In this document: positions 19,141-38,634 of the stretch, piece after piece
How positions within the stretch are numbered: position 1 is the first letter of the stretch
Layout: every line of letters starts with the position of its first letter
Sequence record: OR896820.1
DNA: 64,000 nt
Reading direction: 5' to 3' (one strand)
Source: Escherchia phage Stokescottia
Position numbers and translations under genes: made by a program
Notes under the pieces: generated by a model
What the model was told of the DNA's origin: nothing
The model's input: the letters and a program-made list of their open reading frames with translations, nothing else
Databases searched by the model: none

Positions 19141-19545
19141 AGGGAACAGCGAGCCGATTACGCTGAGTGCAGAATCCCAACCGGAGCGCATTGAATAGAG
19201 TCGGTGGGTTAGTTGTAAAACTAGTACACAGGGGGCGGCAATTCCGGTTAGTGGCTAGAACGTGTAAAATGAGGCGTCTGAAACCTCTCCCCTAAACTCT
19301 TCTCTAATTTATAAATAGTGGGGTGTGGAAATCACTTATGTAGTAACACTGCCGTCCTAGTATAATTGGTATTATCAAGCCGTAACTGGTGGAAGATGTA
19401 GGTTCGAATCCTACGGTCGGTAAGAACTGGATAACTGGTGCTTTTAACGTAAAAGCTTCCGAGGTTAGTTGCGCACTGCCTAAACCACGCGGTAGTTGGT
19501 TCCAGACTAACCAACCAGTCTGCTGAATAGTTTTATTACGATTTA
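19141..19545 (+). ncRNA. candidate structured non-coding RNA(s), unassigned
   Basis: Promoter-driven ~400 nt without ORF; contains T-arm-like GTAGGTTCGAATCCTAC and a terminal hairpin GTTGGTT-CCAGACT-AACCAAC followed by T-rich tract. Confidence 0.3.
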
Positions 19546-23632: not shown

Positions 23633-23710
23633 GGTTCTCAAGCTCATATGGTATGAGCACCCGGCTCATAACCGGAAGGTACGTAGGTTCGAATCCTCGG
23701 GGAGCCACCA
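23633..23710 (+). tRNA. tRNA with CAT anticodon (Met or Ile-lysidine type)
   Basis: Acceptor GGTTCTC/GGGAGCC, loop CTCATAA; T-stem only 3 clean pairs; discriminator A, CCA. Confidence 0.55.
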
Positions 23711-26550: not shown

Positions 26551-26652
26551 AATTCTGTGTAGAGTTAAGTAAACCGGTAGCCAATCAGCTATCATTGCTG
26601 ACATCGAATTCAGCCACAGATACCATTTTCATTAATAACTGAGGAAACAAGC

Positions 26653-26847: not shown

Positions 26848-26924
26848 GCGACCGGGGCTGGCTTGGTAATGGTACTCCCCTGTCACGGGAGGGAATGTGG
26901 GTTCAAATCCCATCGGTCGCGCCA
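26848..26924 (+). tRNA. tRNA-Asp (anticodon GTC)
   Basis: Acceptor GCGACCG/CGGTCGC, loop CTGTCAC, discriminator G, CCA. Confidence 0.75.
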
Positions 26925-26950: not shown

Positions 26951-27298
26951 ATGATTAATGCTAAAGAAGAATTGTTACTTGCCCTAAAGAATACTAATTC
27001 TGAAGTTAAGTGTATTAAGATAGAATTCGGTTATTATGGGGACAAAGAAGTTTGGGTATTACCCGTAGGTTATACAGAAAAAGATATTGAAGATTTTCTA
27101 AATAATCTAGACTTTAAATATGATTCTGGTTTCGGTGGACAATTGCTTTATGGTAACGTATGGTTTACTGATGGAACTTGGTTAGAACGTGGTGAATATG
27201 ATGGTTCTGAATGGTGGGAGTATAAGACTACACCAGCAATCCCTGAGGAATGCCGAACAATTAATGGTGAGGTAGATAATACTTTACGGTTAAACTAA
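26951..27298 (+). CDS. hypothetical protein
   Basis: ORF track. Confidence 0.5.
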   Translation: MINAKEELLLALKNTNSEVKCIKIEFGYYGDKEVWVLPVGYTEKDIEDFLNNLDFKYDSGFGGQLLYGNVWFTDGTWLERGEYDGSEWWEYKTTPAIPEECRTINGEVDNTLRLN

Positions 27299-27420
27299 TA
27301 AAATTTCAGTGCAGAACACGGAGCTAGCAATTCGGAAGTGCTGACTCATGATAAGCTGCCTATGTACTTGCGAAGCGGTCGTGTCCAAGACTCGGACTCT
27401 TGCACTGAAAACAATCAAAC

Positions 27421-27540
27421 ATTCTAGCGTGGTTGATGGGGAAACCAGCTTGGCGAGGGCAGAAGCTCGTTCGATTCGAGTGAAAGAATGGTTCTCGTAA
27501 GTCCGCACAAGTGATAACAGGTTCGAGTCCTGTCTAGAAT
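27421..27540 (+). ncRNA. tRNA-like element with ~45-nt internal insertion (no encoded CCA)
   Basis: Perfect 7-bp acceptor ATTCTAG/CTAGAAT, D-arm TGGT...ACCA, T-arm ACAGG-TTCGAGT-CCTGT, 120 nt with internal hairpins. Confidence 0.35.
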
Positions 27541-27690
27541 GACACTATAAAGTTTACTTATTATGTAGGTTCCGGTAGATCGGCGGGTCTATTCTGGCAT
27601 TTAAGAGAGGTCTCGCAAACTTCTTTGTCAGCCGTGGGGTTGGTAGCCTCCAGGCGGCCTACACAATAAGTAAATTTATTAAAAATTCAT

Positions 27691-27719
27691 TTGCTATTCT
27701 GCTTAATTCTCTGTATAAT
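27691..27719 (+). promoter_or_regulatory. sigma70-type early promoter
   Basis: TTGCTA 27691-27696, TATAAT 27714-27719. Confidence 0.6.
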
Positions 27720-28392: not shown

Positions 28393-28629
28393 ATTTATAT
28401 AAATTGATGAGGAGAAATCCTCATCATAGTTCACTAAGGTATTAGCTCGACCTAGGACTGGCTGCCAAAAAGCACGATCCCCATGATTCGGGAGAAGTTC
28501 TAGATTGGTCCACTAGATTCAGCGGCAACTGAATAGTGTATTGGGTTTGCGAGATGACGCAGTTCCTTCCGCTCGAAGCGAAGGTGCTGTAGTTACGCCG
28601 AGCTAATAGCCTTAGTAAACTAAAGAATT

Positions 28630-28902: not shown

Positions 28903-28993
28903 TGGAAGAGCAAATCGAATTGGCGACGAAAACCGCTTGGAAAGTGGCTGACTGGTAAAACGGCTTGAGAGTTCAAATCTCTCCTCTTCCGCC
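28903..28993 (+). tRNA. tRNA-Ser (anticodon GGA), long variable arm
   Basis: Acceptor GGAAGAG/CTCTTCC, loop TTGGAAA, 19-nt variable arm, discriminator G, CCA. Confidence 0.7.
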
Positions 28994-29013
28994 AAACACT
29001 TGAGGTAATAATA

Positions 29014-30595: not shown

Positions 30596-30817
30596 ATGCA
30601 CGTTTTTGAGTTTCGTAATAAAAGTACCGATAAACGAGTTATTGTTATTGGAGAAACATACCGAGCATATGAACAAACTGACGGCTCTGTTATCCTGAAT
30701 GATGAGAAAGGGGGTTTTAGCTTTTATCCCAAAGAAACTTACGAAGAATTTCGTACAAAGTTTCTTCTACCAGACTGGCTAGAAGTAGCGCAGCAACGAG
30801 AACCCGAAGATGGCTGA
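30596..30817 (+). CDS. hypothetical protein
   Basis: ORF track. Confidence 0.5.
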   Translation: MHVFEFRNKSTDKRVIVIGETYRAYEQTDGSVILNDEKGGFSFYPKETYEEFRTKFLLPDWLEVAQQREPEDG

Positions 30818-30982
30818 TAACCTAAAAGTCAAGATCGATAAACAAAAGAAACGTGTAGAAGTAGAGATTGGTGAAGAACGTGTAGCCTTCACCTTTGAAT
30901 TTCTACAACAAATGGCAATGACAGTCATGACTGATAAGTCTCCTGTTATTGAAAAAGAAATCCCGTTGAAATAACGGGTTCT

Positions 30983-31069
30983 GCTGGGTTGGCAGAATGG
31001 TTGAATGCACCTGATTTGTAATCAGGAGGAGTAATCCCATTGCAGGTTCGAATCCTGTGCCCAGCACCA
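30983..31069 (+). tRNA. tRNA-Thr (anticodon TGT) with 15-nt variable region
   Basis: Acceptor GCTGGGT/GCCCAGC, 3-bp D-stem with 11-nt loop, anticodon stem CCTGA/TCAGG, loop TTTGTAA, discriminator A, CCA. Confidence 0.6.
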
Positions 31070-31251
31070 ATTTAAGGACTAGTATGTTTAAACTGTTAGT
31101 AGTTATCTGGTATAGTCAATCAAATAGAGCGAATACCTCCCACGTTATAGACTTTAATACTAAAAATGAAGCTGAAAAAGCATATGCTAATTTAATAGAA
31201 CGTAATAAAGAATCTCGTAGTATAGTTTATGAAGTGACTAAACTTTATTAA
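31057..31251 (+). CDS. hypothetical protein
   Basis: ORF track; 5' end overlaps tRNA-Thr, so the true start is probably downstream. Confidence 0.4.
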   Translation: MPSTNLRTSMFKLLVVIWYSQSNRANTSHVIDFNTKNEAEKAYANLIERNKESRSIVYEVTKLY

Positions 31252-31259
31252 AAATTCAT

Positions 31260-31288
31260 TTGCTTTCTCTCTTATTTCTTGTTATAAT
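31260..31288 (+). promoter_or_regulatory. sigma70-type early promoter
   Basis: TTGCTT 31260-31265, TATAAT 31283-31288. Confidence 0.6.
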
Positions 31289-31318
31289 ACTTGTATAAAT
31301 TAATGAGAGGGAAACCAA

Positions 31319-31612
31319 ATGAAACGTTATCTTTCTGTTATGTTCCAAACTGGTGGTCAACGCTATACCTATGAATTTCCATCTTCTTGGAAAATCAAAG
31401 AAGGTGATCAAGTAGTTGTACTAACACCGCGTGATGGGTACAAGGTAGTAACGGTTAAGCAAGTCTTTCCAAAAGATTATACACCATCTAAGTCTATTAA
31501 TTATAAGATGATTCATGGTGTAGTTCGTCAAGTACCCCGAGTGGACATCGAGGTCAAAGTAGATAAAGATGGTAAACTTAAATATACCTCTTGCTTAGAA
31601 GAGTTGCTATAA
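31319..31612 (+). CDS. hypothetical protein
   Basis: ORF track. Confidence 0.5.
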   Translation: MKRYLSVMFQTGGQRYTYEFPSSWKIKEGDQVVVLTPRDGYKVVTVKQVFPKDYTPSKSINYKMIHGVVRQVPRVDIEVKVDKDGKLKYTSCLEELL

Positions 31613-31818
31613 TGAGGATTACTTTTACAGAAAAGATCATGAGTAATGGTGTTATGATCATTACTGCATGGGATGGTAATCAGTGGTGTAGTGTTTCAGG
31701 TATTAAGCCTGAAGAACAAACACTAGAAAATATCTCAAAGATTAAGCGAAGAATGGCAGAACGTGCACGACTTCCAGGTGCACCTAGAAATGGCAAACGT
31801 TCTGCAATTAAATGTTAA
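31591..31818 (+). CDS. hypothetical protein
   Basis: ORF track. Confidence 0.45.
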   Translation: MLRRVAIMRITFTEKIMSNGVMIITAWDGNQWCSVSGIKPEEQTLENISKIKRRMAERARLPGAPRNGKRSAIKC

Positions 31819-31819
31819 T

Positions 31820-31896
31820 GCTTCGGTAGCTTAGCGATCTAAAGCACTCGGCTGATAACCGAGAGATCGGGGGTTTAAATCCCTCCCGGAGTACCA
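31820..31896 (+). tRNA. tRNA-Ile (anticodon GAT)
   Basis: Acceptor GCTTCGG/CCGGAGT, D-stem GCTT/AAGC, loop CTGATAA, T-loop TTTAAAT, discriminator A, CCA. Confidence 0.7.
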
Positions 31897-31992
31897 AATT
31901 TAGGAATTAAGACTATGCGTCCAGGAAAGTTTAAAAAAGCTAATTGGTCTAAAGAGTATAAAGAATACTTACTTAGTCTAGTAAAACATAAC

Positions 31993-32068
31993 AGTTAGTT
32001 GGCAGAGTGGTTATGCACCTCCTTCATACGGAGCGACTACAGTGGTTCAAATCCACTACTAACTACCA
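31993..32068 (+). tRNA. tRNA with CAT anticodon (Met or Ile-lysidine type)
   Basis: Acceptor AGTTAGT/ACTAACT, loop TTCATAC, T-arm AGTGG-TTCAAAT-CCACT, discriminator A, CCA. Confidence 0.6.
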
Positions 32069-32105
32069 TTAAAATAGCTAGAGATAGCTAAATTTAGGAG
32101 CAGCT

Positions 32106-32300
32106 ATGTTAACAATTAAAATAATGTCAGCCAAGAATGGGGAACAGATTCACACAGGCAAAAGTGTAAGCTTTAATCCTAGAAATAAAAGATTGGCTAT
32201 AGTTAGAGTAGACCAAGCCATCTTTTTAAAAGAAGATGAAGTAGCATATGTCATGAACCAAACTGGTAAGACAGTTTCCGTATACTATGGAAAAGTATAA
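32106..32300 (+). CDS. hypothetical protein
   Basis: ORF track. Confidence 0.45.
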   Translation: MLTIKIMSAKNGEQIHTGKSVSFNPRNKRLAIVRVDQAIFLKEDEVAYVMNQTGKTVSVYYGKV

Positions 32301-32342
32301 AGAATAAAGAGCTGAGCCAAATTCTAACATCGGGGAGATCTA

Positions 32343-32711
32343 ATGAAAGCATATCAAAATCTTAAATCTGGCGTAATTAACCTTGTTCATGAAAATCAGA
32401 TTATTCAGCTATACTCCGACAACGGTGAACTTAAACAGAAAGTTCTAGTTGAAGATCTAGAAGGTATCACACCACAATTCGATCCTGAAGCCTTCCGTGA
32501 AGTTAAGGTGGAAGTCGCACCTCAAATCGAAGGTGGTCAGCACCTAAATGTCAATGTGTTAAGTCGTGATCAGCTTTTGGATGCACAGAAACACCCTGAA
32601 AAATACCCTCAATTAACTATCCGTGTATCTGGCTACGCTGTTCGATTTAACGCGCTGACTCGTGAACAACAGAACGACGTTATTAGTCGTACATTTACTC
32701 AGGCGATGTAA
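32343..32711 (+). CDS. grcA: autonomous glycyl radical cofactor (YfiD/GrcA-like)
   Basis: C-terminal [11 protein letters not shown]...[33 protein letters not shown] closely matches the GrcA glycyl-radical domain. Confidence 0.85.
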
Positions 32712-32792
32712 TGGGGTTTGGATACGATTTCTCCCAGCTACGCAAGGTAGTCGAGCAAACTCCATTTATCTCCCAAGTTTTAGGAGAAATGT

Positions 32793-33107
32793 GTGGATCG
32801 AGCATTGAGACGCCATCACCGGCAACGTGTGAAGAACAACCGCAAGAAGTATTGGACAGTCTTCCCACATGAAGAAAGCCCTAAGCGGTTAGGTATTATC
32901 ACTACTACTCCTTGCATCTGTTCTTGTTGGATGTGTGGGAACCCTCGCAAATATTATAAGAATAGTAAAGCAGGCATGAAAATCTCGGAGATTAGGAAAA
33001 TGGAAGCAATGATTATGGGCATCTCAAATGATGAATTTGATGGCTTTGTAGGATTCGGAGAAGGAATCAGCTCAGGCTGTTTCGAAGATGAACGCCCCGA
33101 TCTGTAA
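32793..33107 (+). CDS. hypothetical protein
   Basis: ORF track. Confidence 0.4.
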   Translation: MDRALRRHHRQRVKNNRKKYWTVFPHEESPKRLGIITTTPCICSCWMCGNPRKYYKNSKAGMKISEIRKMEAMIMGISNDEFDGFVGFGEGISSGCFEDERPDL

Positions 33108-33116
33108 TTAATAACA

Positions 33117-33151
33117 AACCCCAGCTATTGAATAAGTAGTCTGGGGTTTTT
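33117..33151 (+). terminator. rho-independent terminator
   Basis: AACCCCAG...CTGGGGTT hairpin followed by T-run. Confidence 0.65.
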
Positions 33152-33228
33152 CTGTATACAGGAAAATAGTTTATGTATAATAAAATTCATCCACATTAGG
33201 TTAATTTAAAAGACTTAATGGAGGTAAT

Positions 33229-33576
33229 ATGAGCCGTACTTATCGTAGACAATCTGGTGATCAGTGGTGGAAATCTAAAGAACAATTCTCTCAAGAATAT
33301 TCTTTCCTCAAAGAAAATGGCTACTGGATTCGCGTTATTTATGCCAAATCCTGGGACGACATCAAAAAAGAAATGAAGGAAGCAACCATTCGTAATGAGA
33401 AAAAGGATGGTTATAACTGGAATTCTATTAGTAAGAATGTTAAGTGGCATTCTAATAAAATGGTTCGTCAAGGGAATCGTCAAGAACTCCACCGCGTGAT
33501 GAAAGATCCAGAAAATTATGACTATAATCGCGATCATGACATGCGTAAGCGTGGATTATGGTGGTGCTATGACTAA
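33229..33576 (+). CDS. hypothetical protein
   Basis: ORF track; RBS ggaggt. Confidence 0.5.
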   Translation: MSRTYRRQSGDQWWKSKEQFSQEYSFLKENGYWIRVIYAKSWDDIKKEMKEATIRNEKKDGYNWNSISKNVKWHSNKMVRQGNRQELHRVMKDPENYDYNRDHDMRKRGLWWCYD

Positions 33577-33593
33577 ATTCTGAAATAATTCAT

Positions 33594-33622
33594 TTGCTAA
33601 ACCTCTCTTTTCTTGCTATAAT
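33594..33622 (+). promoter_or_regulatory. sigma70-type early promoter
   Basis: TTGCTA 33594-33599, TATAAT 33617-33622. Confidence 0.6.
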
Positions 33623-33652
33623 ATGTTTATAAATTGATGAGAGAGGTTTGAA

Positions 33653-33934
33653 ATGAAAACTCGTCTAGACTGTGCTGTTCATGTTCTTGAACATGATGTT
33701 GCGGGAACCTGTATGTCTTACCACGAAGCAGGTCGTTTAATTAAAGAACGTGTGGCAGATGTGTGCGGATTGAAGATTACTGCTGAGGAAGCTGATGATC
33801 TTTTAGGCCAAGCACTGGAGAAAACCGAAATGTTTCTCTGCGATTCTTGTTCTTGGTGGTGTGAAGCTCACGAACGTTCTTTCAACGATTATGATGTATG
33901 TCGTGATTGTAGTGGGGAGGATGAAGATGAGTAA
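33653..33934 (+). CDS. Cys-rich small protein
   Basis: CDSCSWWC and CRDCSG motifs. Confidence 0.5.
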   Translation: MKTRLDCAVHVLEHDVAGTCMSYHEAGRLIKERVADVCGLKITAEEADDLLGQALEKTEMFLCDSCSWWCEAHERSFNDYDVCRDCSGEDEDE

Positions 33935-34226
33935 GCTTATTATTGCACTGATGATCTCCGCAGTTAGTTTCGGTTCTCTGGCATCTACCAAAGTTTCTAT
34001 GAAAAATGGTAATGTTAAAGTCCAACAGAACGGCATTATTACCGAGTATGGTAAAGTTCGTGATGTTAAGGAACGTAATGGTAAAGTAGAAATATATACT
34101 AATAAAAACTTCTCTACTCCAGCCGTTACTATTAGCAAACGCGGTGAAATAACCACTCAACGTACTAATAGTTCTGATTCTTTTACTTGTCGTTATGATT
34201 GCGACTTTGAAGGTGAAGATGAATAA
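33927..34226 (+). CDS. secreted/periplasmic small protein
   Basis: ATGA overlap with upstream stop; signal-peptide-like N-terminus. Confidence 0.5.
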   Translation: MSKLIIALMISAVSFGSLASTKVSMKNGNVKVQQNGIITEYGKVRDVKERNGKVEIYTNKNFSTPAVTISKRGEITTQRTNSSDSFTCRYDCDFEGEDE

Positions 34227-34638
34227 TTTAGACCCTAGAATTAAATTTGCAATTACAGAAATCCAAGATCAAATTGATGAGGACTTCACTGTTTGGTCAA
34301 GGTCTGGTAATGGAGAATATTGCCAGCTTTATAGCATGAAAATGGGTATCTCAATTGAGCTTAATATCAACTCTGAAGGTAGAGTAGAAGCCCAACCCAT
34401 GTTCAGTGTTCCAGGCTTCTCTGGATTTGTTGCAGGTATAAAATTGTGTCTACCAAATAACCATCTTCATCGAGTTATTTGTCAGCTAGTGACTATTAAG
34501 CATTTCTTGCCAGAAGGTAACATTAATGACTACTACCATGAAGTTGTAGCAGCTCATATGATGAAAGAACGCAAACGTCGGAGAGAAGAACGTGAAAAGA
34601 CTAAACATCAACAGCACAGTGCAGATTCCAGCAACTAA
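34195..34638 (+). CDS. hypothetical protein
   Basis: ORF track. Confidence 0.5.
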   Translation: MIATLKVKMNNLDPRIKFAITEIQDQIDEDFTVWSRSGNGEYCQLYSMKMGISIELNINSEGRVEAQPMFSVPGFSGFVAGIKLCLPNNHLHRVICQLVTIKHFLPEGNINDYYHEVVAAHMMKERKRRREEREKTKHQQHSADSSN

Positions 34639-34888
34639 GGATGTTTTAACATTCCTACGTAGTGAGAATACCCAATTTTGGCATGACTATATTCAGGAAA
34701 ATAAAAATAATCCAGGTATAGTTGCTTTTGCCAAGAAACGTATCGAAGAATATAAAGATCCAGAGATTAAAGATGGGATGATCACAATGCAATTGTGGGT
34801 AGCCATGAATACGTTTGGACCCACTATGAGTCTAGGAGTTACTCCACTGTTTACTAATATTCTAATTAATGAAAAGGATCTGAAATGA
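34592..34888 (+). CDS. hypothetical protein
   Basis: ORF track. Confidence 0.45.
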   Translation: MKRLNINSTVQIPATKDVLTFLRSENTQFWHDYIQENKNNPGIVAFAKKRIEEYKDPEIKDGMITMQLWVAMNTFGPTMSLGVTPLFTNILINEKDLK

Positions 34889-35169
34889 TTGTTTCTCCGT
34901 TTGCTCTTTGGTTCGTCATTGGGTCTGTGGTTGCTATTTACAGCTTGGTTGATGATCTGTATATTTCTAAGAATAAAGATGTAATATTATACGTTATACG
35001 TAAAACTCGACCGTTAGATCTGCCACCTCTTGATGATAAAACATTACTCAGATGTGCTAGATCTGTGATATTTATTGTGGATATTCTTCTAGGCCCAACA
35101 TCTGTGTTTTTCTTTTATAGAAAAACTCGTAATATGAAAAAATTTAAAGCTGAAATGCAGAATACTTAA
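34885..35169 (+). CDS. membrane protein
   Basis: Two hydrophobic segments. Confidence 0.45.
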   Translation: MIVSPFALWFVIGSVVAIYSLVDDLYISKNKDVILYVIRKTRPLDLPPLDDKTLLRCARSVIFIVDILLGPTSVFFFYRKTRNMKKFKAEMQNT

Positions 35170-35243
35170 AGAACTCGCGTAGGACCGAGTTGCGTCACCT
35201 GCAACTGTTACGGATAAGGGAGTCGTGCCCCTTAGTGCGGTAA

Positions 35244-35624
35244 GTGGTGAGGTGGCTGCTAGCCCTAACTGGAGATAATATGACTATATTACTAATTCTT
35301 GTTACAACTTGGTTTTTAATCGGTGCTGGATATGCGATAGCTATTATTAGACATTTGGACGAATATTCTGCTGAATGGTTTATTAAGTATCTACGTATTG
35401 ATGATCAAGAACAGAAGTTTAAAGATGAAAAGCAGAAAAAAGCAGTAAATAATATGACAGCCAAAGAATGCTTGTTCTACATGCGTATTGTAGGGTTCTT
35501 TGGACTATTAGTTGCTGGCCCAATTGGTTCTACCATTGCTCCGTATAAAGAAACAGTTGCTGACATCAAATTGTGGAGAAATGCAGGGGTACTGCGTAAA
35601 GCTAGAGAAACTAATATTACATAA
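35244..35624 (+). CDS. membrane protein
   Basis: Hydrophobic N- and C-terminal segments. Confidence 0.45.
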   Translation: MVRWLLALTGDNMTILLILVTTWFLIGAGYAIAIIRHLDEYSAEWFIKYLRIDDQEQKFKDEKQKKAVNNMTAKECLFYMRIVGFFGLLVAGPIGSTIAPYKETVADIKLWRNAGVLRKARETNIT

Positions 35625-35718
35625 GATTGATACTAAATCAACTTACTAGCAAAAGCAAATAATGACAAAGCCCAGCTTGCACTTTTGCGACTGGGCTATT
35701 TTTATAATAAAATTTTAG

Positions 35719-35747
35719 TTGCTTAGATGCCCAAACTTTTGTATAAT
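35719..35747 (+). promoter_or_regulatory. sigma70-type early promoter
   Basis: TTGCTT 35719-35724, TATAAT 35742-35747. Confidence 0.6.
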
Positions 35748-35778
35748 ATGTTTATAGATTGAGGCAAGAGGATTAAAT

Positions 35779-36477
35779 ATGAGGATTATTTCTAAGTTCG
35801 CCGATGTGTATGATTTGCAGAACAGTTTGTTCGACCCAGATCGTGTGTGGGAACGTAAAACTGAGGAGTTACTGGTTAAAGTAACCGATGATGCAGAAAA
35901 GAACATTGTGCATACTCGCCAGGTATTTCGTGATGGTTCGCTATCTTTCCGTGGTGATTTCGAATACTTCGTAAACCCCCTATTTGTTGCAGGTGAAGTT
36001 TACTGGTTACACGAGCTGTACTGCTGGCATCCAGCATTTAGCTTCAAAACGTTTAATCTCGACACTATGTTTGATAAAATGGAAGAGATGGGATTACATG
36101 CTCGCTCTTACTTAATGGATAAGAGTCGTGGAGATGTTCGTGAAACAATGCGTGATCTACTAGCTGAAGCAAAACCTAAAGCAGAACGTATCTTATCCGA
36201 ACTGCGTGTACCGATTGCATATGTGAAAGGTATTAAAAAGAACGATAACGATGATGTTCGTAACTTCGTAATTCAGACTAACATTCGTTTCCATCAGTCC
36301 GGTATTCCGTGGCAGGAAATTGAAAGCAACTTATACCGTTTACACCAAGTTCTCGAACAGTATATCTTCGGTGTACTAGGAACTGGTGAGCCTGATATGA
36401 TTAAAGTATCAGATAAAGACAGGTTAGCAGCGCATGGATTTGATACAAAAACTTCTTTCAGGAATATGGCGCGGTAA
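35779..36477 (+). CDS. hypothetical protein
   Basis: 232 aa; ORF track. Confidence 0.55.
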   Translation: MRIISKFADVYDLQNSLFDPDRVWERKTEELLVKVTDDAEKNIVHTRQVFRDGSLSFRGDFEYFVNPLFVAGEVYWLHELYCWHPAFSFKTFNLDTMFDKMEEMGLHARSYLMDKSRGDVRETMRDLLAEAKPKAERILSELRVPIAYVKGIKKNDNDDVRNFVIQTNIRFHQSGIPWQEIESNLYRLHQVLEQYIFGVLGTGEPDMIKVSDKDRLAAHGFDTKTSFRNMAR

Positions 36478-36883
36478 GTGGTATATCCTGGGAGCAGGTC
36501 TAGCGATAGGCATCGGGTTCGGTGCTTATCACCTAATAAATAAAGTGGAGACTTTGGCAGGAGATCTTGCGGTAGCTACTAAAAAGATCTCTTCTCTAGA
36601 GACTTCCCTTAACAAGGTGAAAGCTGAGAGTGAACTTCGTGAGACTCGTATGAATCAGTATTTCACAATGAATAATGTTTCCCAAGCAGATCTAGATAAG
36701 AAAATTAGTCAGCTTGATAAAGCACTTAGTCGTCAAGACATTATAGCTGCAAAGCCTAGATTGGTAACATTAATTGCTAAAAAGCAGAGTAAGGAGTTCG
36801 AGGAAAGATTAGCATGTTTAACTGGAAACTTGGAATACTGCTCGCAGCCGCAATCACAATCACAGGCTGTGCACAAGAAATAA
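36434..36883 (+). CDS. membrane-anchored coiled-coil protein (possible i-spanin)
   Basis: N-terminal TM helix then coiled coil; overlaps downstream lipoprotein gene. Confidence 0.4.
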   Translation: MDLIQKLLSGIWRGKWYILGAGLAIGIGFGAYHLINKVETLAGDLAVATKKISSLETSLNKVKAESELRETRMNQYFTMNNVSQADLDKKISQLDKALSRQDIIAAKPRLVTLIAKKQSKEFEERLACLTGNLEYCSQPQSQSQAVHKK

Positions 36884-37167
36884 AGACAGAATCTACACAT
36901 GAGCTACCAACAGCTCATGTAGACTGGCCCAAAGGACTTCAACCTTGTAGCTTTGACTTTAAGTTTGAAAAGAAATTAGCTACAAATGGAGAAGATGGCG
37001 TAGTAGTTGTTGTACCATATAAAGACTGGAATATGTTGGCAAAATGCCGTGAGGCAGAATATTCCTATATTTCACGACTGACTGGTATGGTTTGCTTCTA
37101 TCGCCAAGATTTACAAGAAAAACGTTGCTTAGTTTACTATCCACCAATTAACAATAGGAAAGATTAA
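36814..37167 (+). CDS. lipoprotein (possible o-spanin)
   Basis: Signal peptide with lipobox ITGC; overlapping arrangement with upstream TM protein. Confidence 0.4.
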   Translation: MFNWKLGILLAAAITITGCAQEIKTESTHELPTAHVDWPKGLQPCSFDFKFEKKLATNGEDGVVVVVPYKDWNMLAKCREAEYSYISRLTGMVCFYRQDLQEKRCLVYYPPINNRKD

Positions 37168-37919
37168 TGTCAGTATTAGTCGGTTTACATGGTGAAGCTG
37201 GTTCGGGAAAAGATACTGTTGCAAAATTAATTATCGATTGGTGTAATGACACGTATCCAACGTGTTTACCCCGTCGTTACAGTTTTGCTAAGCCCGTTTA
37301 TGAACTTGCATCCGTAATCCTCGGTGTAACTCCAGAGTTTCTAGGAGAGCGCAGGGGAAAAGAGGTTGACCAATGGTTTACAGTCACACAATCTCAATTG
37401 GAGCGAGCCAGAGATGTGTGGTTTAAGTACGGTATCGATAAGTTTGAAGACTTCTCGTACGTTTGGCCTATTTTTGAGGAAAAATATCTTAATCCTCAAC
37501 AACTTATCTCAGAGAATAAAGAAGACGGACTTTATAGTTTATTTATTTCTCCGAGAAAAATGTTACAGCTCGTAGGGACAGAGCTAGGAAGGCAGCTGGT
37601 GCATGAACGCATTTGGCTCATAATTCTGGAGCAATCCATCGCTAAAGACGACCCAGATGTCGCCGTAATAACAGATGTTAGATTCCCCAATGAAGGAGAG
37701 CTACTCAGAGAAACAAACCATTTAGATATGGATTCTTTGATAGTAAATGTAGTACCCGCTGAGCAGAAGTTCACTATTAAATCAGATCATCCATCTGAAA
37801 GTGGTATTCCTGCAAAATATATTACTCACGAATTAGTTAATAAATTCGATGGTATCAATAACCTTAAACTAGAAGTTTATAACTTCTGTGACTTAGAGCT
37901 AGAACCACTAGTTGGATAA
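37167..37919 (+). CDS. deoxynucleoside monophosphate kinase
   Basis: P-loop LHGEAGSGKDT at N-terminus; 250 aa. Confidence 0.65.
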   Translation: MSVLVGLHGEAGSGKDTVAKLIIDWCNDTYPTCLPRRYSFAKPVYELASVILGVTPEFLGERRGKEVDQWFTVTQSQLERARDVWFKYGIDKFEDFSYVWPIFEEKYLNPQQLISENKEDGLYSLFISPRKMLQLVGTELGRQLVHERIWLIILEQSIAKDDPDVAVITDVRFPNEGELLRETNHLDMDSLIVNVVPAEQKFTIKSDHPSESGIPAKYITHELVNKFDGINNLKLEVYNFCDLELEPLVG

Positions 37920-37931
37920 TCAAGGATCGCT

Positions 37932-38531
37932 ATGACTAATAAAAAAGAAGAAAAGACTAACCTGTTTCACTCCATTCGCCAATCTAACGAGTATACCTTT
38001 TTCTTTGATGAAGAATTAGGGCCGCCGGATGAATACCGTGATTTATCAATGGTACTTATGCAGGCAAATGAGGACGACGAAATTAATTTGATGATTAATG
38101 GCCCGGGTGGTTATGTTGATACTGCTGCACAGTTATCTAACTTAATTGCTAATTGCCGTGGAACAGTTATAGGACATCTGATTGGTCCTAGTGCTTCTGC
38201 TTACTGCACAATTTTCCTATCCTGTCATGGATGGGTAGTACATCCACATGCTACGCTAATGGGACACACGTTCTCTGGCGGGTTCTGTGAGAAAGGTCAA
38301 GAAATCAAGAAAGCCTATGAATCTTACAACAAGTTCGTAGAAGATATGATGCTAGATGTCTACTATCCATTCTTCTCAATAGATGAAATCGACGAGATGG
38401 TAAAAGACAACAAAAATATCTATCTAGATAGCAAAGAAATCCATAAGCGTATTGAAATCTTGGCAAAATATCGATCTGAGCAATATAATAAAGCCCAGTT
38501 ACCTCAATTCGAGGAGCACAACGAAGAGTAA
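37932..38531 (+). CDS. ClpP-like serine protease
   Basis: INGPGGYV and GPSASAY blocks resemble ClpP motifs. Confidence 0.5.
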   Translation: MTNKKEEKTNLFHSIRQSNEYTFFFDEELGPPDEYRDLSMVLMQANEDDEINLMINGPGGYVDTAAQLSNLIANCRGTVIGHLIGPSASAYCTIFLSCHGWVVHPHATLMGHTFSGGFCEKGQEIKKAYESYNKFVEDMMLDVYYPFFSIDEIDEMVKDNKNIYLDSKEIHKRIEILAKYRSEQYNKAQLPQFEEHNEE

Positions 38532-38540
38532 GTAGTTTTA

Positions 38541-38573
38541 AGCCAGGGTTTAACGACCCTGGCTTTTCTTTTA
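38541..38573 (+). terminator. rho-independent terminator
   Basis: AGCCAGGGT...ACCCTGGCT hairpin followed by T-run. Confidence 0.7.
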
Positions 38574-38634
38574 TCTAAAATTCTTCTTGACAACGACAAA
38601 ATTTTATGCTCCAGAAGTGATCTTTAAAAACACA

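What the first reader, a model, noticed from the sequence alone, without database searches (positions are those of the whole stretch)
27421..27540. tRNA-like gene with a ~45-nt internal insertion
A perfect 7-bp acceptor helix (ATTCTAG/CTAGAAT), a D-arm (TGGT..ACCA) and a canonical T-arm (ACAGG-TTCGAGT-CCTGT) enclose 120 nt, about 45 nt more than a tRNA. The extra sequence forms its own hairpins, one of them T-arm-like (GCTCG-TTCGATT-CGAGT). Unlike the neighbouring tRNAs it has no encoded CCA. It could be an intron-containing or split tRNA, a tRNA-derived regulatory RNA or a processing substrate.
Basis: seen in the sequence. Interest (0 to 1): 0.7.

Follow-up and report, generated by a model that had tools for sequence, protein, structure and literature searches.

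The report
T5 "RNA2": tRNA-shaped RNA carrying insert
This is the phage T5 gene long annotated as "RNA2, tRNA-like RNA of unknown function": a real, conserved tRNA-shaped RNA whose anticodon loop is replaced by a highly conserved 55-base structured module, found in several unrelated groups of large phages and probably not a decoding or spliced tRNA.

Summary
Window 27421-27544 (+) has a 7-bp acceptor stem, a D arm, a T arm, an inner T-arm-like hairpin, and no encoded CCA. The window is a T5-like phage. The element is 96-97% identical to, and syntenic with, the misc_RNA "rna2/RNA2: tRNA-like RNA with unknown functions" annotated in T5 and BF23, so the object is already known. Its function is not.

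Comparative analysis adds the following:
- Copies occur in 484 phage records: three Demerecviridae lineages, T4-like Acinetobacter phages, and three uncultured phage contigs. All but one lie in or next to tRNA clusters.
- All five helices covary: 96.5% of cells are paired, against 30-42% when partners are slid.
- The tRNA stems drift freely in sequence (57% identity) and partly decay in Acinetobacter phages.
- The 55-nt insert is the most conserved part (82% identity; 22 of 30 invariant positions).
- The anticodon-like UCCGCA appears to be base-paired (37:86 and 40:81 covary).
- Removing the insert would leave a pyrimidine at position 37.

Best reading: a non-decoding RNA in which a tRNA chassis (for processing and stability) carries a conserved effector module that binds an unknown, probably host, factor. 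An intron or split tRNA is unlikely. Interest is moderate.

The parts
27421..27427 (+). Acceptor stem, 5' strand (ATTCTAG)
   Evidence: Pairs with 27534-27540. All 7 pairs show compensatory double changes across lineages, e.g. AGACAAT/ATTGTCT in Pantoea, TACGGGG/TCCCGTA in Klebsiella and GACUUUG/CAAAGUC in L138.
27430..27447 (+). D arm (stem TGGT/ACCA, loop TGATGGGGAA), preceded by the non-canonical C8
   Evidence: All 4 stem pairs covary, 97.6-99% paired. The arm is reduced or lost in Acinetobacter phages Acj9 and 133.
27448..27452 (+). Closing ('anticodon') stem, 5' strand (GCTTG)
   Evidence: Pairs with 27508-27512 (CAAGT). 100% paired, and all 5 pairs covary. The MFE partner 27498-27502 is rejected.
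27453..27507 (+). 55-nt conserved insert that replaces the anticodon loop (the putative effector module)
   Evidence: 82% mean identity across 13 lineage representatives, against 57% for the acceptor, D and closing stems. It holds 22 of the 30 invariant positions.
27457..27460 (+). Helix Px, 5' strand (GGGC). Pairs with 27501-27506 (GUCCGC, with bulges)
   Evidence: 37:86 is G-C x30 / A-U x3. 38:84 and 39:83 are invariant G-C. 40:81 is C-G x20 / U-A x7 / U.U x6. RNAalifold instead pairs C83-C84 with G70-G71, and that alternative cannot be tested.
27461..27464 (+). Helix Py, 5' strand (AGAA). Its core G42-A43 pairs with U75-C76 (27495-27496)
   Evidence: 43:75 is A-U x27, C-G x2, U-A x2, G-C x1 and 1 unpaired. 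42:76 is invariant G-C. The full 4-bp UGAG/CUCG helix exists only in phiR2-01, DU_PP_V and the Klebsiella phages.
27465..27481 (+). Inner T-arm-like hairpin (GCTCG-TTCGATT-CGAGT)
   Evidence: The stem covaries (GCUCG/CGAGU, GCUUG/CAAGU, UACGG/CCGUA, UUGG/CCAA, CCCG/CGGG). The 7-nt loop keeps the T-loop signature UUCRA.
27482..27493 (+). Conserved joining strand GAAAGAATGGTT (J62-73), apparently single-stranded
   Evidence: 91% mean identity. A64, A67, A68, G70 and G71 are invariant in 13 lineages. Docking of G70-G71 on the inner T loop, like D-loop G18-G19, is inference only.
27494..27500 (+). CTCG (Py 3' strand) plus the invariant bulge TAA
   Evidence: C74, C76, G77, U78, A79 and A80 are invariant in all 13 lineage representatives.
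27501..27507 (+). GTCCGCA: the anticodon-like string (ARAGORN reads CCG), mostly the Px 3' strand
   Evidence: ARAGORN with introns allowed and an 80% threshold reads tRNA-Arg(CCG) plus a 48-nt intron. The string becomes UCCAUA or ACCAUA in Acj9, Henu6 and L166, together with G37 to A37.
27508..27512 (+). Closing stem, 3' strand (CAAGT)
   Evidence: See 27448-27452.
27513..27516 (+). Variable region GATA (4 nt)
   Evidence: G93 is invariant. The length is typical of a class I tRNA.
27517..27533 (+). Canonical T arm (ACAGG-TTCGAGT-CCTGT)
   Evidence: 98% paired, and 3 of 5 pairs covary. GG, UUC, A and CC are invariant, as in tRNAs.
27534..27544 (+). Acceptor stem 3' strand (CTAGAAT) plus tail GACA (no CCA)
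   Evidence: CCA is encoded in the Pantoea (ACCA), Klebsiella GlastoCabaret (TCCA) and L166 (GCCA) copies, but not in T5-type copies. The T5 record annotates rna2 as running up to this tail.

Best explanation
The element is the orthologue of phage T5/BF23 'RNA2'. It belongs to a conserved family of tRNA-derived, non-decoding RNAs found in large virulent phages.

Proposed mechanism:
1. It is transcribed on the same strand as the surrounding early tRNA cluster, as part of a multi-gene precursor. (Inferred.)
2. Its intact acceptor/T-arm stack and elbow let the host tRNA-maturation enzymes cut it out. RNase P would make the 5' end. Exonucleases or RNase BN/Z, with CCA addition where CCA is not encoded, would make the 3' end. 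(Inferred from what those enzymes are known to recognise.)
3. The anticodon loop is replaced by a 55-nt module. The module has two short helices, an invariant UAA bulge, its own T-loop hairpin and an invariant GAAAGAAUGG strand. (The hairpin and the 43:75, 37:86 and 40:81 pairs are shown by covariation. The rest of the inner fold is inferred.)
4. The anticodon-like bases are sequestered in pairing, so the RNA cannot read codons. (Inferred.)
5. The tRNA body acts as a chassis for processing and stability, much like engineered 'tRNA scaffolds'. The sequence-invariant module is the working part, and it binds a trans-acting factor. That factor is most likely a host component shared by Enterobacterales and Acinetobacter that handles tRNA or translation, since no phage protein gene travels with the RNA. 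(Inferred. The target is unknown.)
For: Identity:
- 96-97% identical and syntenic to the annotated T5 and BF23 rna2.

Real structured RNA:
- All five helices covary, and RNAalifold agrees.
- The covariance model scores homologues at 60-150 bits and ordinary tRNAs at 37.8 bits or less.

tRNA origin:
- Rfam's tRNA model scores the L138 copy at 38.4 bits, above the 29-bit threshold, with a 55-nt insertion in the anticodon loop.
- ARAGORN parses the window copy as a tRNA plus a 48-nt insertion when its thresholds are relaxed.

Breadth:
- 484 phage records.
- Lineages: Tequintavirus, Epseptimavirus, phiR2-01, Hongcheonvirus, Pantoea AAS21, Sugarlandvirus; Acinetobacter T4-like ZZ1/Henu6, Acj9 and a 159.8-kb contig; uncultured contigs L138, L156 and L166.
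- All except L138 lie in or next to tRNA clusters.

Chassis versus module:
- The stems are 57% identical and the insert is 82% identical.
- 22 of the 30 invariant positions are in the insert.
- The D arm and acceptor stem degrade in Acinetobacter phages while the insert stays intact.

Not decoding:
- 37:86 and 40:81 covary.
- The implied loop has a pyrimidine at position 37.

Other:
- No conserved neighbouring protein gene.
- No copies in bacterial genomes.
Against: - No experiment on expression, RNA ends, modification or binding partner was available. The open literature I could search says nothing about this RNA.
- The BF23 note says only 'tRNA-like RNA with unknown functions'. It may rest on sequence alone, unlike RNAIV and RNA 2H, which are called 'stable RNA'.
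- The nearest-neighbour energy model does not favour the comparative inner fold in this phage: -13.8 kcal/mol, against -31.0 for a 34-40/71-77 helix. The evidence for helix Py rests on one strongly covarying pair plus an invariant neighbour.
- The partner of C83-C84 is ambiguous: G38-G39 or G70-G71.
- T5 mutants with deletions that should span this locus are viable (T5Mos, deletion 30661-38625). Any function is therefore conditional.
- The alignments used for the pair counts were fitted to the model's structure, which inflates the percentage paired.
Confidence: 0.6

Rival explanations
1. It is an intron-containing tRNA gene. The ~48-nt insert would be removed, by an unknown phage or host endonuclease and ligase, to give a functional tRNA such as tRNA-Arg(CCG).
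For: - ARAGORN with introns allowed and a relaxed threshold calls tRNA-Arg(CCG) with a 48-nt intron at 27421-27541.
- The cloverleaf frame is intact and covaries.
- Some lineages encode a 3' CCA.
- Pairing between an intron and the anticodon loop is known in eukaryotic pre-tRNAs (own knowledge), so the 37:86 covariation does not exclude an intron on its own.
Against: - The spliced loop would be N-U-CCG-C-A, with a pyrimidine at position 37. In Acj9, Henu6 and L166 the 'anticodon' becomes CCA with U37, in phages that already carry tRNA-Trp(CCA).
- The insert is more conserved than the exons.
- C8 and U14 replace the near-universal U8 and A14 in the window copy. The D arm is lost in Acj9 and 133. 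Epseptimavirus copies carry a U2.U71 mismatch.
- 48-55 nt is too short for a group I or group II intron, and no Rfam ribozyme or intron family matches.
- No bulge-helix-bulge geometry is present.
- The body resembles no co-resident isoacceptor.
Confidence: 0.07
2. It is a cis-acting processing or stability signal. The tRNA-like fold only recruits RNase P and 3' nucleases to punctuate the polycistronic transcript and to define the ends of the neighbouring RNAs (the upstream structured element and RNAIV). The excised RNA itself would have no function.
For: - It lies between two other structured RNAs with no promoter or terminator in between.
- tRNA-like punctuation is an established principle, e.g. 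mascRNA and mitochondrial transcripts (own knowledge).
- The locus appears dispensable in the laboratory.
Against: - Punctuation needs only the acceptor/T-arm minihelix and the elbow. It does not explain 22 invariant bases inside the insert across phage families whose flanking genes differ completely.
- In Acinetobacter phages the processing-relevant acceptor and D regions are the parts that decay.
Confidence: 0.1
3. It is a decaying tRNA pseudogene that picked up an insertion, for example by recombination between tRNA genes, and is carried along passively in the tRNA cluster.
For: - Non-canonical C8 and U14, no CCA, not called by standard tRNA finders.
- The inner hairpin looks like a second T arm, as a partial tRNA duplication would.
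- The region appears dispensable.
Against: - Compensatory changes maintain all five helices over large evolutionary distances.
- The insert is near-invariant between Demerecviridae, Straboviridae and uncultured phages. This is the signature of purifying selection, not decay.
Confidence: 0.05
4. The locus encodes a small protein. ORFs overlapping it are annotated as hypothetical proteins in several relatives.
For: - A 50-aa ORF at 27348-27500 (+) and a 72-aa ORF at 27290-27508 (-) exist.
- Relatives annotate g056, Acj9p148, AAS21_gp115 and several 'hypothetical protein' genes over it.
Against: - The substitution pattern is RNA-like (paired compensatory changes), not codon-like.
- The annotated ORFs differ in frame, strand and extent between relatives.
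- The AUG inside the insert is not in a conserved frame with any stop codon (sequence inspection).
- Cross-lineage protein hits near the RNA are only translations through RNA genes.
Confidence: 0.01

Closest known systems
Phage T5 / BF23 'RNA2' (misc_RNA in AY692264 and AJ604530: 'tRNA-like RNA with unknown functions')
   Same: It is the same gene. It is 96-97% identical, has the same length (124-125 nt) and the same position between tRNA-Asp plus a small ORF and RNAIV / promoter P13a.
   Different: Nothing differs in the object itself. What this analysis adds is the family-wide distribution, the covariation-supported structure, and the finding that the insert rather than the tRNA body is the conserved part.
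Engineered 'tRNA scaffold' RNAs, in which a structured RNA replaces the anticodon loop of a tRNA for stable expression in E. coli (Ponchon and Dardel; own knowledge)
   Same: The architecture is the same: acceptor, D and T arms are kept, and the anticodon stem is extended into a foreign structured module. The expected consequences are the same too: processing by tRNA enzymes and nuclease resistance.
   Different: This one is natural and evolutionarily conserved, and the cargo's function is unknown. The analogy concerns how it works. It is not a statement of family membership.
Phage T4 species 1 and species 2 stable RNAs (rnaC, rnaD)
   Same: They are small stable RNAs of unknown function at the end of a phage tRNA cluster. 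rnaC has a canonical T arm and a CCGUAAGCC string.
   Different: They are not homologous by the covariance model. Only true tRNAs in the T4 locus score. rnaC and rnaD also lack the cloverleaf frame with a closed acceptor stem.
tmRNA tRNA-like domain
   Same: An acceptor/T-arm tRNA mimic in which the anticodon arm is replaced by a long extension.
   Different: - No tag reading frame and no pseudoknot series.
- No G3:U70 pair.
- The element has a full D arm.
- It is 120 nt, against about 360 nt for tmRNA.
- ARAGORN's tmRNA mode and Rfam find nothing.
Bacterial tRNA genes with group I introns in the anticodon loop (e.g. cyanobacterial tRNA-Leu, Azoarcus tRNA-Ile; own knowledge)
   Same: The insertion interrupts the anticodon loop of a tRNA-shaped gene.
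   Different: Those introns are about 200 nt or longer with a conserved catalytic core, and they leave a canonical anticodon loop after splicing. Here the insert is 48-55 nt, it matches no ribozyme family, and the remaining loop would be non-canonical.
YrlA / bacterial Y RNAs and other tRNA mimics (mascRNA, viral tRNA-like structures)
   Same: Non-coding RNAs that imitate the tRNA elbow and are handled by tRNA enzymes (own knowledge).
   Different: In YrlA the RNA termini lie at the anticodon-stem end and the acceptor is closed by a loop. Here the termini are in the acceptor stem. No Rfam match to any of these families was found.

Membership tests
T5/BF23 RNA2 (annotated misc_RNA) | High sequence identity to the annotated T5 and BF23 rna2 | tested here: met
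   The region is 96.8-97.0% identical to T5 and BF23. The alignment has 50 invariant and 10 near-invariant columns across 10 phages. The covariance model scores T5 at 144 bits, BF23 at 149 and the window at 148.
T5/BF23 RNA2 (annotated misc_RNA) | Same genomic position (after tRNA-Asp and a small ORF, before RNAIV, promoter P13a and tRNA-Pro) | tested here: met
   The gene order and 8 matches the window: tRNA-Asp 26848-26924, ORF 26951-27298, RNA2, RNAIV, promoter-like site 27691-27719, tRNA-Pro 27915.
tRNA (Rfam RF00005) | Cloverleaf with acceptor, D, anticodon and T stems maintained by covariation | tested here: met
   All four tRNA-frame stems are 95-100% paired with compensatory changes.
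tRNA (Rfam RF00005) | Score at or above the Rfam gathering threshold (29 bits) | tested here: not met
   The window copy gives no tRNA hit even at E <= 10. Only the divergent L138 copy passes, at 38.4 bits.
tRNA (Rfam RF00005) | 7-nt anticodon loop with U33 and a purine at position 37 | tested here: not met
   The loop is replaced by 55 nt. The 7 nt before the 3' strand read N-U-C-C-G-C-A, with C at position 37 (U in Acj9, Henu6 and L166).
tRNA (Rfam RF00005) | Conserved core bases U8 and A14 | tested here: not met
   The window has C8 and U14. C8 is the majority base across lineages.
tRNA (Rfam RF00005) | Aminoacylation and use in decoding | not testable with these tools
   This needs acylation-sensitive tRNA sequencing or a northern blot.
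Intron-containing tRNA (group I intron type) | Self-splicing intron core (P3-P9 helices and guanosine-binding site; about 200 nt or more) | tested here: not met
   The insert is 48-55 nt. No intron or ribozyme family matches at E <= 10 or E <= 0.1 in L138.
Intron-containing tRNA (any type) | A spliced, ligated product exists | not testable with these tools
   This needs RNA sequencing across the junction.
tmRNA | tRNA-like domain plus a tag reading frame. Detected by ARAGORN tmRNA mode or Rfam RF00023 | tested here: not met
   ARAGORN -m at an 80% threshold finds nothing. Rfam finds no tmRNA in the window region. No reading frame is conserved.
T4 species 1 / species 2 RNAs (rnaC, rnaD) | Sequence and structure homology to T4 rnaC or rnaD | tested here: not met
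   The covariance model hits only true tRNAs in the T4 locus L027. The shared short strings are not collinear.

The most novel reading that the evidence does not exclude
This would be a natural 'tRNA scaffold' RNA class. Large virulent phages of at least three unrelated groups would share a non-coding RNA in which a freely drifting tRNA chassis presents an invariant ~55-nt module. The module would have its own T-loop 'second elbow', an invariant GG strand and a UAA bulge. It would bind and modulate a conserved host component of the tRNA or translation machinery, or of a tRNA-directed defence system. That would make it a new kind of phage RNA effector rather than a tRNA.
Probability: 0.4. Interest if true: 0.7.

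Novelty: already known. Interest (0 to 1): 0.45.

Why it matters
The gene has been in GenBank since about 2004 as an RNA of unknown function, and it is ignored or mis-annotated as protein-coding in nearly all of the ~480 phage genomes that carry it. One example is the 'orphan gene' g056 of phiR2-01.

It matters because phage tRNA clusters are now known to counter tRNA-targeting defence systems, such as PARIS. A conserved, non-decoding, tRNA-shaped RNA sitting in those clusters is an obvious candidate for another layer of that conflict, or for manipulating translation.

The analysis gives concrete targets for experiments: the invariant bases, the covarying pairs, and the natural variants. It also provides a covariance model that could seed an Rfam family and correct current annotations.

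Tried and rejected
1. Homology with T4 rnaC and rnaD. The short shared strings looked suggestive, but the covariance model does not hit them.
2. The minimum-free-energy inner structure (28-32/78-82 and 34-37/74-77). It pairs no better than shuffles, 124/500.
3. A conserved neighbouring protein partner. All-vs-all BLAST of ORFs within 4 kb in 9 lineages gave only within-family hits and translations through RNA genes.
4. The YqeY-like (GatB-tail) ORF next to the L138 copy. YqeY homologues occur in Vibrio, Aeromonas, Pseudomonas and Caulobacter phages but not in T5-like or Acinetobacter phages. I treat it as coincidence.
5. Copies in bacterial chromosomes or prophages. The 9 pattern hits in 100,044 genomes equal my rough estimate of the chance expectation, and none is hit by the model. 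There is no match in 5,426 E. coli genomes even at E <= 10.
6. Origin from a specific co-resident tRNA, including the often-adjacent tRNA-Gly. The best body similarity is 11 of 65.
7. A small ORF or mini-tmRNA reading of AUG(68-70)...UAA. The frame is not conserved between the two insert types.
8. The IMG/VR 14-mer scan (95 loci) and part of the gapped-pattern scan (L134, L136, L137, L139, L140, L142). These were chance matches.
9. Literature searches for T5 RNA2, phage tRNA-like RNAs and T5 transcriptomes. They returned nothing specific.
10. RNAalifold's alternative pairing G70-G71:C83-C84. It cannot be tested because one side is invariant.
Full report
**What is there**

The window is a T5-like phage. 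The 471 bases around the finding are 99.8% identical to Escherichia phage BUCT632 and 96.8% identical to T5. The finding sits inside a same-strand cluster of more than 20 tRNA genes.

- a 7-bp acceptor stem (27421-27427 / 27534-27540);
- a D arm (27430-27447);
- a canonical T arm (27517-27533);
- an inner hairpin with a 5-bp stem and a T-loop-like 7-nt loop (27465-27481);
- a 3' tail GACA, whereas the neighbouring tRNAs encode CCA.

Standard tools do not call it. ARAGORN with default settings and Rfam at its gathering thresholds skip it. A permissive Rfam scan of the region returns only noise. The single-sequence fold is not better than shuffled sequence (z = -0.94). ARAGORN with introns allowed and an 80% threshold parses 27421-27541 as "tRNA-Arg(CCG) with a 48-nt intron".

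**It is already annotated**

The T5 st0 record AY692264 and the BF23 tRNA-region record AJ604530 carry a misc_RNA "rna2 / RNA2". BF23 notes it as "tRNA-like RNA with unknown functions". It is 125 nt long and lies at exactly this position, followed by "RNAIV" and promoter P13a. The window copy aligns base for base with those records. So the object is known, and its function is not.

The searchable literature has nothing specific on it. The PARIS study reports viable T5 variants with deletions in the tRNA region, including T5Mos (deletion 30661-38625). RNA2 lies at about 32.9-33.1 kb in the T5 records. If the coordinate systems match, RNA2 is dispensable on laboratory hosts.

**It is a real, conserved RNA family**

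BLAST finds the element in 484 phage records. I fetched diverse copies from:
- Epseptimavirus, Yersinia phiR2-01, Pectobacterium DU_PP_V, Pantoea AAS21 and Klebsiella Sugarland-like phages;
- T4-like Acinetobacter phages Henu6/ZZ1 and Acj9, which belong to a different family, Straboviridae.

Pattern scans of IMG/VR and metagenomes, filtered with a covariance model built here (R1), added four more copies: a 159.8-kb Acinetobacter-phage-like contig (L133), a 164-kb uncultured phage contig (L138), and two metagenomic contigs (L156, L166).

The model separates the classes cleanly. True copies score 60-150 bits, and ordinary tRNAs score 37.8 bits or less.

Every copy except L138 lies in or beside a tRNA cluster. 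None of the records other than T5 and BF23 annotates it as an RNA. Several lay hypothetical ORFs over it. One is phiR2-01 g056, which was published as an "orphan gene unique to phiR2-01".

**Covariation**

On 26 distinct sequences, the five helices (acceptor, D, closing stem, inner hairpin, T arm) are 96.5% paired, against 30-42% when the 3' partners are slid. 21 of 26 pairs show compensatory double changes, and 0 of 500 shuffles reach the observed values. A 33-sequence set gives the same picture. RNAalifold recovers the five helices without guidance.

The acceptor stem is an entirely different sequence in Pantoea (AGACAAT/ATTGTCT), Klebsiella (TACGGGG/TCCCGTA) and L138 (GACUUUG/CAAAGUC), yet it is always 7 bp.

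The stem that closes the insert pairs positions 28-32 with 88-92 (numbering from 27421). It does not pair with 78-82, as the MFE fold has it. That MFE register, together with the MFE helix 34-37/74-77, does no better than shuffles (124/500; one double change).

One caveat applies. The alignments were fitted to the model, which inflates the percentage paired. The slid-partner control and the independent RNAalifold result argue that the signal is real.

**tRNA origin**

Rfam's curated tRNA model scores the L138 copy at 38.4 bits, above its 29-bit gathering score, and places a 55-nt insertion exactly in the anticodon loop. The family is therefore tRNA-derived. The body resembles no particular co-resident tRNA (best score 11 of 65), so no isoacceptor can be assigned.

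**Where the selection acts**

I compared one representative from each of 13 lineages.

| Region | Mean identity to the majority base |
|---|---|
| Acceptor, D and closing stems | 57% |
| 55-nt insert (27453-27507) | 82% |

Of the 30 invariant positions, 22 are in the insert: C34, G38, G39, G42, G49, U51, U56, U61, A64, A67, A68, G70, G71, C74, C76, G77, U78, A79, A80, C83, C84 and A87. The other eight are G93 and the universal T-arm bases.

In Acinetobacter phages the D arm is reduced or lost, and the acceptor stem acquires bulges and mismatches, but the insert is intact. This is the opposite of what a spliced intron would show. It fits a structural chassis that carries a sequence-specific module.

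**Inner structure of the insert**

An all-against-all column scan and formal counts support the following:
- The inner T-arm-like hairpin: the stem covaries and the loop reads UUCRAUU.
- A pair 43:75 seen in four Watson-Crick forms (A-U x27, C-G x2, U-A x2, G-C x1), next to an invariant G42-C76. I call this helix Py. It is a full 4-bp UGAG/CUCG helix in phiR2-01, DU_PP_V and the Klebsiella phages.
- A helix Px formed by GGGY (37-40) and RUCCGC (81-86). Here 37:86 switches G-C to A-U in three lineages, and 40:81 switches C-G to U-A. Type-B copies have U.U at 40:81.

In this model the anticodon-like UCCGCA is largely base-paired, UAA (78-80) is an invariant bulge, and GAAAGAAUGGUU (62-73) is an invariant joining strand. 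I infer, without a test, that G70-G71 may dock on the inner T loop as G18-G19 do in tRNA, giving the RNA a "second elbow".

Three caveats apply:
- RNAalifold instead pairs G70-G71 with C83-C84. That cannot be tested because one side never varies.
- The nearest-neighbour energy model prefers a 34-40/71-77 helix in this particular phage: -31.0 kcal/mol, against -13.8 for the comparative fold.
- Py rests mainly on one strongly covarying pair.

**Why it is probably not a spliced or decoding tRNA**

- Removing the insert leaves N-U-CCG-C-A, with a pyrimidine at position 37.
- In Acj9, Henu6 and L166 the would-be anticodon is CCA with U37. Henu6, for one, already has tRNA-Trp(CCA) nearby.
- The window copy has C8 and U14.
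- The discriminator base and the first acceptor pair vary freely.
- The insert is far too short for a self-splicing intron, and it matches no ribozyme family.
- The 3' tail is CCA in the Pantoea copy, one Klebsiella copy and L166, but GACA, AACA or other sequences elsewhere. This fits a tRNA-like 3' end that host enzymes can trim and repair, as is known for T4 tRNAs that lack CCA (own knowledge).

**Search for a partner**

- No protein gene is shared near the RNA across phage families.
- A YqeY-like ORF beside the L138 copy does not co-occur with the RNA elsewhere.
- No bacterial genome carries the RNA.
- E. coli genomes contain nothing resembling the insert.

A conserved host factor, or a phage protein encoded elsewhere in the genome, is therefore the likeliest target. 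This is inference.

**Verdict**

The element is the known T5 "RNA2". The best-supported mechanism is a tRNA chassis that recruits the tRNA processing and stabilising machinery and presents a conserved 55-nt effector module. The module's target is unknown.

What this analysis adds is the family's breadth across unrelated phages, its covariation-supported structure, and the location of the selective constraint. I rate the interest as moderate. The function of a decades-old orphan RNA becomes experimentally approachable, but the object is not new and its mechanism remains inferred.

Noticed in passing
window 27304-27410 (+): An unannotated structured element lies immediately upstream of RNA2. It has an 11-13-bp closing stem (UUUCAGUGCAGA...UCUUGCACUGAAA) and z = -1.96. 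It is absent from the T5 annotation. About 207 of 479 relatives match at least 80% of a query that spans it. Phages polluks and DU_PP_V carry a different element there that shares the 3' string CGGACUCU.
   Followed up: partly
window ~27550-27677 (+): This is the orthologue of T5 'RNAIV' (stable RNA of unknown function). It folds very stably (-49.4 kcal/mol, z = -5.2) as a multi-branch structure closed by a ~20-bp stem and followed by a U-rich tail. A promoter-like site at 27691-27719 matches T5 promoter P13a.
   Followed up: partly
window 26553-26625 (+): This is the orthologue (97%) of BF23 'RNA3', another 'tRNA-like RNA with unknown functions', directly after tRNA-Asn. Neither ARAGORN nor Rfam calls it.
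   Followed up: no
window 28440-28611 (+): This is the orthologue (95%) of T5/BF23 'RNA 2H' (stable RNA of unknown function). The tRNA cluster therefore carries at least four non-tRNA small RNA genes.
   Followed up: no
window 19351-19422 and 23633-23707 (+): Rfam calls tRNAs here (35.5 and 40.3 bits) that ARAGORN's default run misses.
   Followed up: no
window 28904-28994 (+): A 91-nt stretch gives a weak hit to the RNA2 covariance model (18.4 bits, tRNA-frame only). Neither ARAGORN nor Rfam calls it a tRNA. It may be another degenerate tRNA-like element.
   Followed up: no
L138 8968-9097 and 9105-9232 (+): This 164-kb uncultured phage contig has two more ~115-130-nt tRNA-like elements, with an acceptor stem plus ACCA, a D arm and a GUGGG/CCCAC T arm. 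Their long anticodon-region inserts also contain CUCGUAAAUC and CCGUAAAAC strings. ARAGORN finds no standard tRNA anywhere in the 10-kb locus.
   Followed up: partly
L021 586-732 (phiR2-01 g056); L130 1487-1717 (Acj9p148); L023 603-680 (AAS21_gp115): Protein-coding genes are annotated on top of the RNA in several published genomes. g056 is described in the phiR2-01 paper as an orphan gene unique to that phage. These are probably mis-annotations.
   Followed up: partly
L018, L019, L020, L132 (Epseptimavirus copies), position 2:71 of the acceptor stem: All Epseptimavirus copies carry a U2.U71 mismatch (ATTCTAG/CTAGATT). The Acinetobacter Henu6 and Acj9 copies also have U.U at this pair. This is a recurrent non-canonical pair rather than random decay.
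   Followed up: no
L002 1802-1875; L018 741-814; L130 1421-1497; L133 7749-7824: A tRNA-Gly gene is often the immediate neighbour of the RNA: after it in BF23 and Epseptimavirus, and before it in Acj9 and the phage-133-like contig. The RNA's body shows no particular similarity to tRNA-Gly.
   Followed up: partly
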